From the NCBI GenBank assembly GCA_029781075.1, contig JAKOXJ010000042.1:1-30401 (forward strand): 30,401 nt of DNA. The letters run 5' to 3'. The first letter of the stretch is position 1. Each line of letters opens with the position of its first letter. Positions 1 to 24,312 of this stretch are shown in pieces. The stretch is from a bacterium. GTDB taxonomy: Bacteria > Patescibacteriota > Saccharimonadia > Saccharimonadales > HK-STAS-PATE-42. The notes below the pieces were generated by a model. That model searched no databases, was not told the origin of the DNA, and saw only the letters and a list, made by a program, of their open reading frames with translations. The position numbers and the translations under genes were made by a program.

Positions 1-324
1 CTGCCCAGTTCTCATCGAAAAATCACCTGCTAAGAATATTTTAACCATATTACCGTTAAACTCTATCTCGTGGTTCTTTCCAATAGGATTATTGTTACCA
101 GTCTCAATTACTCTATGGTTCCTCAGTATGTGCTGGAGTTTTTCTTGCTCTGAGAGGAGCACTGCCTCTTTGGCCTTGGCATTATCCCAAGGAGAGTTAT
201 CATGCCAAGTCTCTGAGCTCTCGGTTAGCGTTTGCCTAAACTCAGCAGCAAGTTCTCTCAGCTCTAATTTGAGCTCTTCTAGTCTTTCTACAACTAGTTC
301 TTTGTCTTCTTGTAGTATTTCCAT
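1..324 (-). CDS. GreA/GreB-like transcription elongation factor, partial (runs off window start)
   Basis: Not in the ORF track. Manual translation from ATG at 324: MEILQEDKELVVERLEELKLELRELAAEFRQTLTESSETWHDNSPWDNAKAKEAVLLSEQEKLQHILRNHRVIETGNNNPIGKNHEIEFNGNMVKIFLAGDFSMRTGQ, open to base 1. Helix-tip-helix coiled coil with WHDNSPWDNAK resembling the Gre DLxENxEYxxAK tip. Confidence 0.7.
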   Translation of the reverse strand, partial: MEILQEDKELVVERLEELKLELRELAAEFRQTLTESSETWHDNSPWDNAKAKEAVLLSEQEKLQHILRNHRVIETGNNNPIGKNHEIEFNGNMVKIFLAGDFSMRTGQ

Positions 325-364
325 ATTTTTAATAGTTTAGTTTATTTGATCTGGGATGTCATTC

Positions 365-393
365 AAAAAGTAAAAGACACCCTCTAGGTGCCT
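365..393 (-). terminator. Terminator-like hairpin inside the 5' leader of the Gre-like gene
   Basis: Minus strand AGGCACC-TAGAG-GGTGTCT (7 bp, one G-U) running into TTTTACTTTTT. Confidence 0.5.
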
Positions 394-426
394 GAAGGAG
401 CCACTTTGCCCCGGTTGATGCTATTG

Positions 427-456
427 ATTATAGCAAAAACCACTTGTGTGTGGCAA
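427..456 (-). promoter_or_regulatory. sigma70-type promoter for the Gre-like gene
   Basis: TTGCCA (456-451), 18-nt spacer, TG-C-TATAAT extended -10 (435-427). Confidence 0.65.
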
Positions 457-464
457 GTGGTTTT
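436..464 (-). terminator. Intrinsic terminator downstream of rpsJ
   Basis: Perfect 11-bp inverted repeat AAAACCACTTG/CAAGTGGTTTT with a 7-nt loop; T-run at the 3' end on the minus strand. Confidence 0.7.
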
Positions 465-605
465 AAAGGGTGATCGGTTAAAATCTTTTGTTTTCTTGTT
501 TTTAATTCCTTTTTTATTTTATTTTTACTTCTCTAGTTGTTACTATTGCAAAAATCTAGGATAAAAACAAGACTGCAAATTTAAGCAATTTTATTGCGCT
601 TGAGT

Positions 606-929
606 TTACATCTTGATCTCAACATCGCAACCGGCAGGAAGGTTCAAACTCATCAACCTGTCGATTGTCTGCGGAGTTGGATCAAGCACATCGATTATGC
701 GCTTATGCACGCGAGATTCGAATTGCTCCTGAGAGTTTTTGTACTGAGCAGGAGCCCTAACTACGCTATAAAGCGTACGGCGAGTTGGTAAAGGGATTGG
801 CCCGTTAACCTTAGCACCAGTCCGAGTAGCAATATCTACGATCTGTTTTGCAGATAGATCTGCTACTTTGTGATCAAAAGCTTTAAGTCTGATTCTGATC
901 TTTCCCGTTGCTTTAGCTGCTGTTGCCAT
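606..929 (-). CDS. rpsJ: 30S ribosomal protein S10 (uS10)
   Basis: [22 protein letters not shown] and HKRIID motifs. Confidence 0.98.
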
Positions 930-959: not shown

Positions 960-2147
960 TTACTTGACGATCTTTGTTACTACACCAGCACCAACTGTAC
1001 GTCCACCTTCACGGATAGCTAGGTTTAGACCTTCTTCCATCGCAATTGGTGAGATTAGTTTAACTTTGAAAGTTACTGTATCGCCAGGCATTACCATTTC
1101 TTTGTCAGCTGGGAGCTCAATTTCTCCGGTCACGTCAGTTGTTCGGAAGTAGAACTGCGGCTTATAACCCTTAAAGAATGCTGAGTGACGTCCACCTTCT
1201 TCTTTAGTTAGGATGTAAACCTCTGCTTCGAACTCTGTGTGTGGAGTTATTGAACCTGGTTTAGCAAGAACCTGACCACGTTCGATCTGTTCACGCTCGA
1301 TACCGCGAAGTAGTAATCCTGCGTTATCACCGGCTTGACCCTGATCTAGAGACTTCTTAAACATCTCAACACCAGTGATTGTAGTCTTCTGAGTATCTTT
1401 AATACCAACGATTTCTACTTCGTCACCAACCTTAACGATACCTTGCTCAATTCTACCTGTAGCAACAGTACCACGTCCTTTAATACTAAAGACATCTTCG
1501 ATCGGCATTAGGAATGGCTTATCTAGATCACGAACTGGCTCTTTGATCCATTCGTCAACAGCGTCCATTAGCTCCATGATTGAATCTTCAGCAGCACTGT
1601 CGCCTTCTAGAGCCTTAGTAGCAGAACCTTTAACGATTGGTGATTTCTCATCGAAGCCTTGCTTCTTAAGCTCTTCACGGATTTCATCTTCTACTAGTTC
1701 AACTAGATCTGGATCAGCAAGGTCCATCTTGTTTAGGAAGACAACGATAGAAGGTACACCGACCTGCTTAGCAAGGAGTATGTGCTCTTTAGTTTGAGCA
1801 AGAGGTCCATCGTTACCAGCAACTACTAGGATAGCTCCGTCAATCTGAGCAGCACCAGTGATCATGTTCTTGATGTAATCAGCGTGACCTGGCATGTCGA
1901 CGTGAGCGTAATGACGCTTTTCTGTCTCATACTCAACATGTGAAGAGTTAATAGTAATTCCACGTTCTTGCTCTTCTTTGGCACCATCAATGGTAGCAAC
2001 AGTAGCGACTACGTCGTTAGCTCCACCAGGTACTCTTTTTGCTAGAACAGCTTTAATTGCAGCCGTAAGGCTTGTTTTACCGTGGTCAACGTGTCCCATT
2101 GTTCCAACGTTAACGTGTGGCTTGGTTCTTGAATAAGTATCTGCCAT
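960..2147 (-). CDS. tuf: Elongation factor Tu
   Basis: [44 protein letters not shown]; 395 aa. Confidence 0.99.
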
Positions 2148-2205
2148 ATCTTTTTTAGATTTTAACCTTTTTAATTAATGTTTTTTATTAATTTGATATT
2201 TCAGT

Positions 2206-2339
2206 TTTCTCTGATAGAAGATCTTCGTCCACAATAACTGCTTACTGGCAGTTTGCCTCACTATGCAGCCTTAACGTTTTAGCCTGCATAGCTGGCATTT
2301 GTTTTTAGTGGAACTCGGATCTTAAAATAGTCAGAGAAA
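2206..2339 (-). ncRNA. Unassigned 134-nt structured RNA upstream of tuf (leader or 6S-like)
   Basis: Nested helices: TTTCTCTGA/TCAGAGAAA, AAGATC/GATCTT, TCCAC/GTGGA, TGCC/GGCA, CTATGCAG/CTGCATAG, plus side hairpin AACTGC/GCAGTT. No credible ORF; starts about 5 nt after the predicted transcription start. Confidence 0.65.
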
Positions 2340-2351
2340 TACTAAGTACTA

Positions 2352-2381
2352 ATTTTACACTAGTGGTAGTGGTTTTTGCAA
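2352..2381 (-). promoter_or_regulatory. sigma70-type promoter for the structured RNA and tuf-rpsJ
   Basis: TTGCAA (2381-2376), 18-nt spacer, TAAAAT (2357-2352). Confidence 0.6.
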
Positions 2382-2393
2382 ACCCCTATTAAT

Positions 2394-2657
2394 TCACTTC
2401 CACCAAGGACGCTCATCCTCAAAAAACCATCCAAATACTTTAGGCGGTATATCAAAAGCCATACCTACTATCTTAGCCCCAGTAGCAGATATGAAGTCTC
2501 GTGCTACGCCAAGCTCTTCATCAAAAAGACCCGGCACTTTTACCGAGTCATTCATAAGGGGAGGATGCACAAAAGCCTCATCTGGATGTTGACACCCTAC
2601 AGATCTGATATCTTCTGTAGGATCTTCGTAGGGTCTATCTAACTCTAATAATGTCAT
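2394..2657 (-). CDS. Hypothetical protein, 87 aa, acidic
   Basis: ATG-started ORF co-oriented with fusA/tuf, TATAAT at 2693-2688 upstream; no recognised family. Confidence 0.5.
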   Translation of the reverse strand: MTLLELDRPYEDPTEDIRSVGCQHPDEAFVHPPLMNDSVKVPGLFDEELGVARDFISATGAKIVGMAFDIPPKVFGWFFEDERPWWK

Positions 2658-2671
2658 CGGACAGCTTAGGT

Positions 2672-2821
2672 TTATAACTTAAGCAGAATTATACTCTTAG
2701 ACCTAGAATAATCAATCTTCGTTGTGCTCTTGAACATGTTGCCAAGGGCATGGTTGGTCATGAAGTCTCTGTAGGGCTGCGATGCCCTGTGAAGGAAGTT
2801 TAACCAATCATACACTGGCAT
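2672..2821 (-). CDS. Possible small ORF, 49 aa (MPVYDWLNFLH...)
   Basis: Manual translation; GGGAG shortly upstream of ATG; overlaps the preceding small ORF by 14 nt. Confidence 0.2.
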   Translation of the reverse strand: MPVYDWLNFLHRASQPYRDFMTNHALGNMFKSTTKIDYSRSKSIILLKL

Positions 2822-2957
2822 CAAATATGCTCCCTGCTATATAGGATACAGACCCTGCCGCTTCTCCGAGCCTAGAGATAATAATCAAATCTCTAGGATT
2901 ACCAGGCCGACCTTGGACCTCTTTACTAGGTCCTGAATCATACGTTGGCATGGCCAT
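2808..2957 (-). CDS. Possible small ORF, 49 aa (MAMPTYDSGPSKEVQGRPGNP...)
   Basis: Manual translation; ATG 12 nt after the fusA stop; ends at TGA 2810-2808. Confidence 0.3.
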   Translation of the reverse strand: MAMPTYDSGPSKEVQGRPGNPRDLIIISRLGEAAGSVSYIAGSIFDASV

Positions 2958-2969
2958 ATTATCTTCTTT

Positions 2970-23535: not shown

Positions 23536-24312
23536 TTAATGGCCGAGCTTATCCAGAGCTTCTCCTGCCGCAGCCTGCTGAGCTGTTTGTTTGCTGTGAC
23601 CAGTTCCCTTACCATAGATCTTACCCTTTATATAAGCACCAAGGGTGAAGGATTTATCATGGTCGGGACCAGATTCTTCTAGAACTCTATAGACTGGGGG
23701 TACACCAAACCTTGACTGGGCAAGCTCCTGAAGGATAGACTTTGGATCTCGCCAACTTTCAGTCTCTATCATTGTGCTAGTTTTTGTTAATAGGTTGTCT
23801 GCAATGAATTTTTCTGCAACATCAAAACCGAACTCGAGATAGAGTGCTCCAACGAATGCCTCAAAAGTATTAGCTAGAATTTGTAAACGAGACCTTTCTA
23901 GGTTTAGCTTCTCCCCCTTACTTAAGCGAAGAAATCTATCCATTTCTAATGAATCTGCTACGGCGCCAATGCTTTCTGTCCTAACTAGTGCGGACCTCCA
24001 GGCAGTTAGAACCCCTTCCGGCTCGTCTGGATACTCAGCATAGAGATATCTAGTGACTGCAAGTTCTAGAACTGCGTCGCCTAAGAATTCTAGGCGCTCA
24101 TTATTCTTGAACTTAGACTTTTTGTGCTCATTGACATAGCTCCTGTGGGTGAATGCATTTAGAAGGAGTCCTAGATTAGAGAATTCTTTAGAGATAACCT
24201 CTGCTGAGAAAGTCTGATATGGAGTCATGTCAACTCCCTGAAAGAATATTCCTGGGTTTTTGGCCTCTTGAGGCGTTTCTTGAGGCTTTGGTTTTAAACT
24301 TTGACGTGGCAT
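23536..24312 (-). CDS. rnc: Ribonuclease III
   Basis: AFTHRSY, NNERLEFLGDAVL, ANTFEAFVGALYL, dsRBD with GPDHDK. Confidence 0.97.
   Translation of the reverse strand: MPRQSLKPKPQETPQEAKNPGIFFQGVDMTPYQTFSAEVISKEFSNLGLLLNAFTHRSYVNEHKKSKFKNNERLEFLGDAVLELAVTRYLYAEYPDEPEGVLTAWRSALVRTESIGAVADSLEMDRFLRLSKGEKLNLERSRLQILANTFEAFVGALYLEFGFDVAEKFIADNLLTKTSTMIETESWRDPKSILQELAQSRFGVPPVYRVLEESGPDHDKSFTLGAYIKGKIYGKGTGHSKQTAQQAAAGEALDKLGH

What the first reader, a model, noticed from the sequence alone, without database searches (positions are those of the whole stretch)
2206..2381. 134-nt multi-helix RNA between its own promoter and tuf: new leader or miniature 6S-like RNA
Seen (minus strand, 5' to 3'): TTTCTCTGA(2339-2331)/TCAGAGAAA(2214-2206) 9 bp; AAGATC/GATCTT 6 bp; CG/CG; TCCAC/GTGGA 5 bp; a junction with unpaired TAAAAACAAA on the 5' side and a 6-bp hairpin AACTGC-CAGTAA-GCAGTT on the 3' side; then TGCC/GGCA, an AG/TGA internal loop and CTATGCAG/CTGCATAG 8 bp closing a 15-nt apex. 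The fold starts about 5 nt after the start predicted from TTGCAA-N18-TAAAAT. No terminator separates it from tuf. Established: 6S RNAs are rods with a central bubble, sometimes with a small hairpin on the 3' side, and E. coli 6S is processed from a longer co-transcript; they are usually 160-200 nt with a longer apical arm. Inference: either a cis-regulatory leader of tuf-rpsJ, or a shortened 6S. A short apical (-35-mimic) arm would fit a genome whose promoters are mostly extended -10 type. I could not match it to any RNA family I know.
Basis: partly seen in the sequence, partly recalled or inferred. Interest (0 to 1): 0.78.

Follow-up and report, generated by a model that had tools for sequence, protein, structure and literature searches.

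The report
Expanded structured 5' leader of tuf
The 134-nt fold is real, but it is the folded front end of the EF-Tu (tuf-rpsJ) messenger RNA of a Saccharibacteria clade, an enlarged version of a short hairpin that starts the tuf message across the whole order, and not a 6S-like RNA.

Summary
It sits behind a promoter conserved in all relatives, and no terminator lies before tuf. No Rfam family matches.

Ten related lineages carry a homologous leader of 103-203 nt. They share an invariant closing helix at the predicted 5' end and a fast-evolving but always paired rod. Nine of the ten also carry an apical hairpin with covarying stem pairs and an invariant 14-nt loop (GCUAAAACGUUAAG).

More than 25 other families of the order have only a 25-55 nt hairpin at the same place. 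A covariance model of that hairpin finds the tuf leader as the best hit in families it was not trained on. The published TM7x "tuf promoter" cassette contains the hairpin too.

The genomes encode RNase J, Y and III. RNase E/G was not found.

Best reading: a cis-acting 5'-terminal leader that protects tuf mRNA from decay, enlarged in this clade and given a sequence-specific apical recognition loop. The 6S reading is rejected.

One untested lead: the loop is complementary to tuf codons 12-14. The one lineage that lost the hairpin also rewrote those codons.

Expression and the transcription start remain unverified.

The parts
2352..2381 (-). tuf promoter: -35 TTGCAA (2381-2376), 18-nt spacer, -10 TAAAAT (2357-2352)
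   Evidence: Found by the promoter scan. Conserved as TTGCAAA/TTTACAA-N17/18-TAnAAT in all clade members and in more than 25 other families. The TM7x equivalent drives reporters.
2343..2345 (-). Predicted transcription start (7-9 nt after the -10), at the foot of the closing helix
   Evidence: Inferred from promoter geometry only. There are no RNA data.
2331..2344 (-). P1 5' strand: UAGU-A-UUUCUCUGA. The block UAGUAUUUCU is invariant in 10 lineages.
   Evidence: Folds. Invariant columns in alignments A1 and A4.
2202..2214 (-). P1 3' strand: UCAGAGAAA-ACUG
   Evidence: The variants seen keep pairing: A to G in G001 (U-G), A to U in L150-153 (the bulge shifts), GAGAAA to GGGAAA in L149 (U-G).
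2215..2330 (-). Variable interior: rod helices (AAGAUC/GAUCUU, UCCAC/GUGGA) and a multibranch junction. It cannot be aligned between lineages, but it is always paired.
   Evidence: Per-lineage folds with z from -3.9 to -6.9. Alignment A4.
2261..2291 (-). Apical hairpin: 8-bp stem CUAUGCAG/CUGCAUAG, a G.G mismatch, C-G and U-A pairs, and a 9-nt loop. The 14 nt GCUAAAACGUUAAG (2283-2270) are invariant, apart from one A/G site, in 9 lineages.
   Evidence: Covariation count: 14 pairs, 6 with changes on both sides, 92.9% paired against 21-48% in slid controls. New lineages. One copy per genome.
2236..2253 (-). Side hairpin AACUGC-CAGUAA-GCAGUU. Its sequence is lineage-specific. Other lineages have a different hairpin here, or none.
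2193..2204 (-). Conserved single-stranded tail CUGAAAUAUCAA (CUGCAAAUAUUAA in L150-153). It can also pair with the 5' end in a second register.
   Evidence: Alignments. The second register comes from reading the sequence and is not tested.
2148..2192 (-). A/U-rich unstructured spacer up to the tuf AUG. It holds only a distant SD-like AAGG about 20 nt before the AUG.
960..2147 (-). tuf (EF-Tu, 395 aa)
   Evidence: Pfam GTP_EFTU with domains 2 and 3.
2106..2113 (-). tuf nt 35-42, UUAACGUU (codons 12-14). This is the perfect complement of the apical loop AACGUUAA and a candidate long-range partner.
   Evidence: This is a lead, not an established interaction.
606..929 (-). rpsJ (S10), 30 nt after tuf. 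It is the second and last recognisable gene of the unit.
   Evidence: Pfam Ribosomal_S10. The next ORF has no Pfam family and has its own promoter-like site.

Best explanation
The fold is the 5'-terminal domain of the tuf-rpsJ mRNA and acts in cis. Across the order, the tuf message begins with a hairpin a few nucleotides after the start site. In this clade the loop of that hairpin has grown into a 100-200 nt rod with branches. The closing helix (UAGU-A-UUUCUC / GAGAAA-ACUG) still clamps the 5' end.

Most likely mechanism (inferred): a base-paired 5' end denies entry to 5'-end-dependent decay, namely RNase J 5'-exonuclease and 5'-end-stimulated RNase Y. That gives the most heavily used mRNA of the cell a long life. 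The fold ends 54 nt before the AUG and hides neither the ribosome-binding region nor a terminator, so it does not work as an attenuator or an RBS-sequestering switch.

The clade-specific apical hairpin, with its invariant 14-nt loop, is an added sequence-specific recognition site. Its partner is unknown. It could be a protein or another RNA segment.

What is shown: the structure, its conservation, its specificity for tuf, and the nuclease repertoire. What is inferred: the start site, the stabilising role, and the role of the loop.
For: - **Structure:** z = -6.4 here and -1.8 to -6.9 in nine homologues.
- **Apical stem:** 6 of 14 pairs show compensatory changes, with 92.9% paired.
- **P1:** it is present in every lineage, and its few changes keep pairing.
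- **Rod helices:** they differ in sequence between lineages but always pair.
- **Position:** the element starts 6-7 nt after a conserved -10 in all lineages.
- **Other families:** 20 of 20 sampled families have a hairpin at the same place, with 85.6% paired against 26-59% in slid controls.
- **Specificity for tuf:** covariance model R1 finds the tuf leader as the top hit in five untrained families. Only two non-tuf hits reach E < 0.01 in 41 genomes.
- **Published cassette:** the TM7x tuf promoter cassette that drives strong reporter expression carries the promoter, hairpin and SD (PMC10633639 Table S4).
- **Nucleases:** RNase J, RNase Y and RNase III are present, and RNase E/G was not found in five genomes. 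This is the B. subtilis-type decay set, in which 5' stem-loops are known stabilisers (review PMC3997798; hbs 5' UTR PMC5737220).
- **No attenuator features:** there is no terminator and no RBS occlusion.
Against: - No transcript data exist. The start site, co-transcription with tuf and any processing are all unverified.
- P1 is invariant, so it offers no covariation test of its own.
- A pure stabiliser needs no sequence conservation. Yet the P1 strands, the tail CUGAAAUAUCAA and the 14-nt loop are invariant while synonymous sites in tuf are largely saturated (only 15.7% of degenerate codons are invariant). This points to specific recognition, which the stabiliser model does not explain.
- A crude scan of other promoters in this genome shows no general habit of 5' hairpins.
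- G001 does without the apical domain, so that domain is dispensable.
Confidence: 0.55

Rival explanations
1. Autoregulatory operator. A protein made from the operon or tied to translation (EF-Tu, S10/NusE or another factor) binds the invariant apical loop, or in other families the conserved short hairpin, and feeds back on tuf-rpsJ translation or decay, as ribosomal-protein leaders do.
For: The 14-nt loop is invariant, with a conserved G.G or G.A mismatch beneath it, in nine lineages whose stems covary. The short hairpin keeps conserved sequence (GGUAAC-UCGYGUGAG) across families and is specific to tuf. An r-protein gene (rpsJ) lies in the unit.
Against: No similarity to the organism's own 16S or 23S rRNA beyond chance: best 15 of 23, a score about one third of shuffles reach. 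The fold neither overlaps the RBS nor forms a terminator, so the usual ways of acting are missing. G001 lost the loop. No partner has been identified.
Confidence: 0.18
2. Long-range RNA-RNA contact. The apical loop AACGUUAA pairs with tuf nt 35-42, UUAACGUU (codons 12-14), about 170 nt downstream. This closes the leader onto the start of the coding region to modulate early translation or to mask a cleavage site, comparable to the 5'/3'-UTR interaction of B. subtilis hbs mRNA.
For: The 8-nt complementarity is perfect. GUUAACGU is invariant in all nine hairpin-bearing lineages, although only 15.7% of degenerate codons are invariant. G001 is nested inside the clade (81% and 95% support) and lost the hairpin. 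It changed codons 12, 13, 14 and 16 synonymously, using its only two GTG codons in tuf. Only 7 of 46 otherwise invariant codons changed in G001, and three of them lie here.
Against: The hypothesis is post hoc and rests on one evolutionary event. The first 75 nt of tuf are generally conserved at synonymous sites: five of the eight longest invariant runs lie there. GTTAACGT also occurs in 6 of 20 other families that have no such hairpin. G003 and L149 carry GUC, which cuts the duplex to 7 bp with no matching change in the loop. AACGUU is a palindrome, so the match is partly a matter of composition.
Confidence: 0.12
3. RNase III processing site. The long, nearly continuous rod (P1 plus P2, about 20-25 bp with bulges) is cut by RNase III. 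The cut separates tuf from upstream read-through transcripts or sets its 5' end.
For: RNase III is encoded, including in this window at 23782-24168. The rods reach two helical turns in several lineages. No terminator separates the upstream ORF from the tuf promoter.
Against: The homologous hairpins in other families have only 8-9 bp, too short for RNase III. A conserved promoter sits immediately upstream, so the 5' end needs no processing.
Confidence: 0.08
4. Independent small RNA, a miniature 6S-like RNA that binds RNA polymerase.
For: A rod-like overall shape with an internal junction. No recognisable 6S gene was found elsewhere in five genomes.
Against: No match to any 6S model, even at E = 10. 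No 3' end signal. Length and junction are not conserved, the apical arm is lost in G001, and the element is reduced to a 25-55 nt hairpin in other families.
Confidence: 0.02
5. Leader peptide. The apical hairpin encodes a 10-24 aa mini-ORF (M-Q-A-K-T-L-R-L-H...) whose translation regulates tuf.
For: An AUG or GUG followed by an open frame is present in eight lineages. The only two loop substitutions (UUA to UUG, AGG to AGA) are synonymous in that frame (reading of the sequence).
Against: L152 and L153 keep the hairpin through a compensatory G-C to A-U change that destroys the start codon, and an in-frame UAG precedes it. There is no SD. The start codon is buried in the stem. The C-terminal part and the length are not conserved.
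Confidence: 0.03

Closest known systems
5'-terminal stabiliser stem-loops of bacterial mRNAs (E. coli ompA and papA 5' UTRs; B. subtilis aprE leader)
   Same: A hairpin within a few nucleotides of the mRNA 5' end of a highly expressed gene. It acts in cis and does not cover the RBS. The host has 5'-end-dependent nucleases (RNase J and Y here). Review: PMC3997798.
   Different: Those elements are short, simple hairpins with no need for conserved sequence. This one is 134 nt and multi-branched, with invariant strands and an invariant apical loop. It is specific to tuf. Stabilisation has not been tested here.
B. subtilis hbs mRNA 5' UTR (PMC5737220)
   Same: A highly structured 5' UTR of an abundant housekeeping mRNA in an RNase Y / RNase J1 organism. 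Long-range pairing with a distant part of the same mRNA controls nuclease access.
   Different: No sequence relation. In hbs the partner is the 3' UTR, and protection depends on a strong SD. Here the candidate partner is codons 12-14, and the SD is weak and distant. Nothing has been tested.
Autogenous ribosomal-protein and translation-factor leaders (E. coli S10 leader/L4, str/S7, L10 leader)
   Same: A structured leader ahead of a translation-gene operon that includes rpsJ. It is lineage-restricted, as such leaders usually are.
   Different: No rRNA mimicry was detected. There is no terminator and no RBS overlap. No Rfam r-protein leader matches.
6S RNA (Rfam RF00013)
   Same: An elongated helical RNA with an internal unpaired region.
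   Different: No model match, no defined 3' end, variable size, a dispensable apical arm, and an internal bubble that is not conserved. It is attached to an mRNA.

Membership tests
6S RNA | Match to the 6S covariance models | tested here: not met
   No hit at gathering score or at E up to 10 in the region. RF00013 found nothing in five genomes, while the control genomes were detected.
6S RNA | Conserved architecture: closing stem, large central bubble, terminal arm, about 160-200 nt | tested here: not met
   Homologues range from 103 to 203 nt. The junction differs in every lineage. G001 lacks the apical arm. Other families have a 25-55 nt hairpin.
6S RNA | Discrete stable RNA that binds RNA polymerase holoenzyme | not testable with these tools
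   There are no RNA data. No terminator precedes tuf.
5'-terminal mRNA stabiliser stem-loop | Helix begins within about 5 nt of the transcript 5' end | tested here: inconclusive
   P1 starts 6-7 nt after the conserved -10, that is at about +1 to +2. In other families the stem starts at about +5 to +7. The start site is inferred, not mapped.
5'-terminal mRNA stabiliser stem-loop | Host uses 5'-end-dependent decay enzymes | tested here: met
   RNase J and RNase Y are present in 5 of 5 genomes. RNase E/G was not found.
5'-terminal mRNA stabiliser stem-loop | Removal of the hairpin shortens mRNA half-life | not testable with these tools
   This needs reporter or half-life experiments.
Autogenous r-protein/translation-factor leader | Lies in the 5' UTR of an operon that encodes the regulator | tested here: met
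   It lies upstream of tuf-rpsJ.
Autogenous r-protein/translation-factor leader | Mimics the regulator's rRNA (or tRNA) binding site | tested here: not met
   Best ungapped match of the apex to the 16S plus 23S of G003 is 15 of 23, a score about one third of shuffles reach. Structural mimicry was not tested.
Autogenous r-protein/translation-factor leader | Structure overlaps the RBS or forms a terminator/attenuator | tested here: not met
   A 54-nt unstructured spacer separates the fold from the AUG, and there is no terminator-like site.
Riboswitch | Conserved ligand-binding core with a linked expression platform | tested here: not met
   The junction and interior cannot be aligned between close relatives. 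There is no expression platform. No Rfam match.

The most novel reading that the evidence does not exclude
The clade-specific apical loop is a functional partner of the tuf coding region. It would form an 8-bp contact with codons 12-14, or a shared factor would bind the ACGUUAA motif present in both. This would give the first described post-transcriptional control circuit built into a bacterial EF-Tu mRNA. It would have evolved by expansion of an order-wide, tuf-specific 5' hairpin and been lost together with its target codons in one lineage.
Probability: 0.15. Interest if true: 0.7.

Novelty: new member of a known kind. Interest (0 to 1): 0.42.

Why it matters
EF-Tu is among the most abundant proteins of a bacterial cell, yet no conserved RNA element controlling tuf is catalogued in Rfam. 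This work defines one for Saccharibacteria, ultrasmall episymbionts of the Patescibacteria/CPR with tiny genomes and few known regulators. The short hairpin is tuf-specific and found across the order. One clade has a greatly enlarged version with clear covariation and an invariant loop.

The short form already sits inside the "tuf promoter" cassettes used for genetics in cultured Saccharibacteria. Its contribution to expression therefore has practical value and can be tested directly in that system. The family also offers a clean natural series, from 25 to 200 nt, for studying how a simple 5' hairpin grows into a multi-helix domain.

Tried and rejected
- **Rfam:** the whole window at gathering score, the region at E up to 10, and 14 related loci at E up to 1 gave only chance-level hits such as CRISPR-DR10, mir-4657 and SNORD105.
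- **6S model:** nothing in five genomes.
- **rRNA mimicry:** the apex resembles 16S GCUAACGCGUUAAG, but 15 of 23 matches is at shuffle level. k-mers shared with the rrn leader are at chance level.
- **BoxA-like or SD-pairing explanations:** reading the sequences gave no convincing match.
- **Apex loop pattern across 400 genomes of the order (2 mismatches):** hit counts were close to the reversed-pattern control. Exact copies occur only in the genus.
- **Metagenome scan of the loop pattern:** only copies identical to G003 and G004 turned up. The rest were unrelated.
- **Genome-collection scan of the tail pattern:** it gave the taxon names but no new homologues.
- **RNA evidence:** no RNA holder is listed for the window. 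For the G003 homologue, one metatranscriptome held only the conserved tuf coding part, from other organisms. Nothing can be said on expression.
- **Second copies of the loop motif in the clade genomes:** none, so there is no regulon.
- **General 5' hairpins at other promoters of this genome:** the crude scan found only 16 promoters, and they fold no better than random 60-mers.
- **Small hairpin between the distant AAGG and the AUG:** not conserved (reading).
- **Pair count on P1 over the 221-column alignment:** not run, because the structure string would have been a long typed string. P1 was read from alignment A4 instead.

Full report
**Context**

On the minus strand the window reads as follows:
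- fusA (5057-2970)
- small ORFs without a Pfam family, including an 87-aa ORF at 2657-2394
- a 246-nt intergenic region (2393-2148)
- tuf (2147-960)
- rpsJ (929-606), 30 nt after tuf
- an unrelated ORF with its own promoter-like site, not rplC

The unit that the element heads is therefore tuf-rpsJ. Record titles of relatives name the group Candidatus Saccharibacteria. The close relative G003 turns up in activated-sludge and wastewater runs from several studies.

**The observation**

MFE is -48.8 kcal/mol, and dinucleotide shuffles give -26.9 +/- 3.4, so z = -6.4. Within the full intergenic region the fold is unchanged, and the closing helix gains UUAGU/ACUGA around one bulged A. The promoter TTGCAA-N18-TAAAAT is detected, and no terminator-like site separates the fold from tuf. 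No Rfam family matches, neither at gathering score over the window nor at E up to 10 in the region.

**Homologues in the clade**

BLAST against relatives found homologous leaders in the four other species of the genus. EF-Tu homologues of 84-98% identity led to six more contigs. All carry three things in the same order:
- the same promoter
- 6-7 nt later, the invariant block UAGUAUUUCUC
- near the 3' end, (A)GAGAAA-N-CUG followed by a conserved tail, CUGAAAUAUCAA or CUGCAAAUAUUAA

Leader domains measure 103 nt (G001), 130-150 nt (most lineages) and 203 nt (G004). Each one folds with the two conserved blocks as the closing helix and a rod-and-branch interior. The z-scores are -1.8 (G001) and -3.9 to -6.9 for the rest. 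The interior cannot be aligned between lineages, yet it is always paired, which is the pattern expected when shape rather than sequence is under selection. The few changes in the closing helix keep pairing:
- A to G in G001 gives a U-G pair.
- A to U in L150-153 shifts the bulge.
- GAGAAA to GGGAAA in L149 gives a U-G pair.

These G-U pairs, the promoter and the direction of tuf assign the RNA to the minus strand. In this genome alone the two strands fold equally well.

**The apical hairpin**

Nine of the ten lineages have an apical hairpin whose top is invariant: GCUAAAACGUUAAG, with one A/G site. It sits on C-G and U-A pairs above a G.G or G.A mismatch. The stem below covaries:
- CUAUGCAG/CUGCAUAG in this window
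- UUGAUGCAG/CUGUAUCAA
- GCCAUGCAG/CUGCAUGGC
- GUGCAG/CUGCAC
- GCUACAG/CUGUAGC

On four sequences, 6 of 14 pairs change on both sides and 92.9% of cells pair, against 21-48% when the partner strand is slid. The motif occurs once per genome. It does not occur outside the clade in 400 genomes of the order or in the metagenome collection.

A tuf tree places G001, the lineage without the hairpin, inside the clade, with 81% and 95% support. G001 therefore lost the hairpin secondarily.

**The wider order**

I fetched the tuf upstream regions of 20 other families. All show a conserved promoter (CTTTACAAA-N17-TAnAAT). Five to seven nucleotides later comes GGUAAC, then a hairpin, then an A-rich stretch and a canonical AGGAG. 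There are two size classes:
- A short form of about 35 nt, with stem CGYRUGAG/CUYAUGCG.
- A longer form of about 50 nt, with conserved internal sequence.

The sister genus has an 84-nt version. On ten short forms, 85.6% of cells pair against 26-59% in slid controls, with modest covariation.

A covariance model built from these ten was run over 41 genomes. It found the tuf leader as the best hit in five families that were not in the training set. Only two non-tuf hits reached E < 0.01, one upstream of an L32 gene and one inside a coding region. None of these leaders matches Rfam.

The published TM7x "tuf promoter" cassette drives hygromycin resistance and reporters in Southlakia. It consists of exactly this promoter, a hairpin of the same class, and the SD (PMC10633639, Table S4).

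The window's 134-nt fold is therefore a clade-specific enlargement of an order-wide, tuf-specific 5' hairpin. The homology rests on position and architecture. The sequences themselves have diverged.

**Mechanism**

Some mechanisms can be excluded. The fold ends 54 nt before the AUG, in front of an unstructured A/U-rich spacer. No U-tract follows any helix. It is therefore neither a terminator-attenuator nor an RBS-sequestering switch.

The closing helix sits at the predicted 5' end. The genomes encode RNase J, RNase Y and RNase III, and RNase E/G was not found. This is the Bacillus-type decay set. In that setting, and in E. coli for ompA and papA, a 5'-terminal stem-loop is an established stabiliser (review PMC3997798). 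The structured hbs 5' UTR is a related case (PMC5737220).

I therefore take 5'-end protection of a very highly expressed mRNA as the base function (inference). It does not explain the sequence invariance of the helix strands, the tail or the apical loop. These point to specific recognition by a partner I could not identify.

**The rivals**

- **Protein operator.** This is attractive because of the invariant loop. However, I found no rRNA mimicry and no way for binding to reach the RBS.
- **Long-range RNA contact.** This is the most interesting lead. The loop AACGUUAA is the exact complement of tuf nt 35-42 (codons 12-14, GUU AAC GUU). These codons are invariant in all nine hairpin-bearing lineages, although only 15.7% of degenerate codons are. 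G001, which lost the hairpin, reads GUG AAU GUG and also changed codon 16. It used its only two GTG codons there. Three of the seven changes G001 made among 46 otherwise invariant codons lie here. Against this: it is one event, found post hoc. The first 75 nt of tuf are generally conserved. The same codons occur in 6 of 20 families without the hairpin. Two lineages have a 7-bp version with no matching loop change.
- **RNase III processing.** The long rods make this possible, but the 8-9 bp homologues could not be substrates.
- **Mini-ORF in the apical hairpin.** L152 and L153 argue against it. There, a compensatory stem change removes the start codon while keeping the hairpin.
- **6S RNA.** This reading fails every test I could run.

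**Limits**

No transcript data could be found, so the start site and co-transcription are inferred. The clade sample is ten lineages. The closing helix is invariant and cannot be tested by covariation.

**Verdict**

This is a real, well-supported and uncatalogued structured leader of tuf. It is new as a motif and ordinary in kind, and it carries one lead worth testing.

Noticed in passing
window 2148-2175 (minus); L148-L153 upstream of tuf: In this clade tuf has no Shine-Dalgarno at normal spacing. There is only a conserved AAGG(A/U)U about 19-24 nt before the AUG, and G001 has none. Other families have AGGAG at -8 to -12. The 16S anti-SD (CCUCCU) is intact in G003 and G004.
   Followed up: partly
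L061-L080, L159-L163 (tuf upstream regions of other families): An order-wide, tuf-specific leader motif: promoter, GGUAAC, a hairpin (CGYRUGAG/CUYAUGCG) and an A-rich tail. A longer variant keeps conserved internal sequence (GAGGGCUUUUG ... AAUAUGGA). Neither is in Rfam. It would merit its own covariance model and a phylum-wide survey.
   Followed up: partly
window 2287-2234 (minus): The apical hairpin contains a short ORF (M-Q-A-K-T-L-R-L-H...). The two loop substitutions seen in relatives are synonymous in its frame, but L152 and L153 lack a start codon.
   Followed up: yes
window 1-606 (minus): rpsJ is not followed by rplC. Next comes a promoter-like site (456-427), a leader with a terminator-like hairpin (393-375), and an ORF with no Pfam family. 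In relatives the same place holds a 128-146 aa ORF with no family, and in some of them dnaE follows.
   Followed up: partly
window 2394-2969 (minus); L148, L152, L153: Between fusA and the tuf promoter lie one to three small ORFs (60-108 aa) with no Pfam family. The C-terminal motif of the last one (W-x-F-E/G-D-x-R-P-W) is shared with G003, L152 and L153. In several other families fusA abuts the tuf promoter directly.
   Followed up: no
window 2193-2214 and 2331-2346 (minus): The invariant 5' block can pair in two registers: with GAGAAAACUG (the P1 helix) or with the tail GAAAUAUCAA (9 of 10 pairs). In the outlying lineage L155 a single continuous 12-bp helix replaces both. This may be a conformational alternative, or a remnant of a duplication.
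   Followed up: no
L157 (G031:C11:11009-11047): A hairpin scoring 29 bits with the tuf-leader model lies about 115 nt upstream of an L32 (rpmF) gene. It may be chance.
   Followed up: partly
L002 and L126 (G003): The G003 tuf leader and its rRNA operon leader share the 10-mer ACTCTAGCGG, next to a boxA-like UCGUCUUUUAC in the rrn leader. About 0.7 such matches are expected by chance, and it is not conserved in other lineages.
   Followed up: partly
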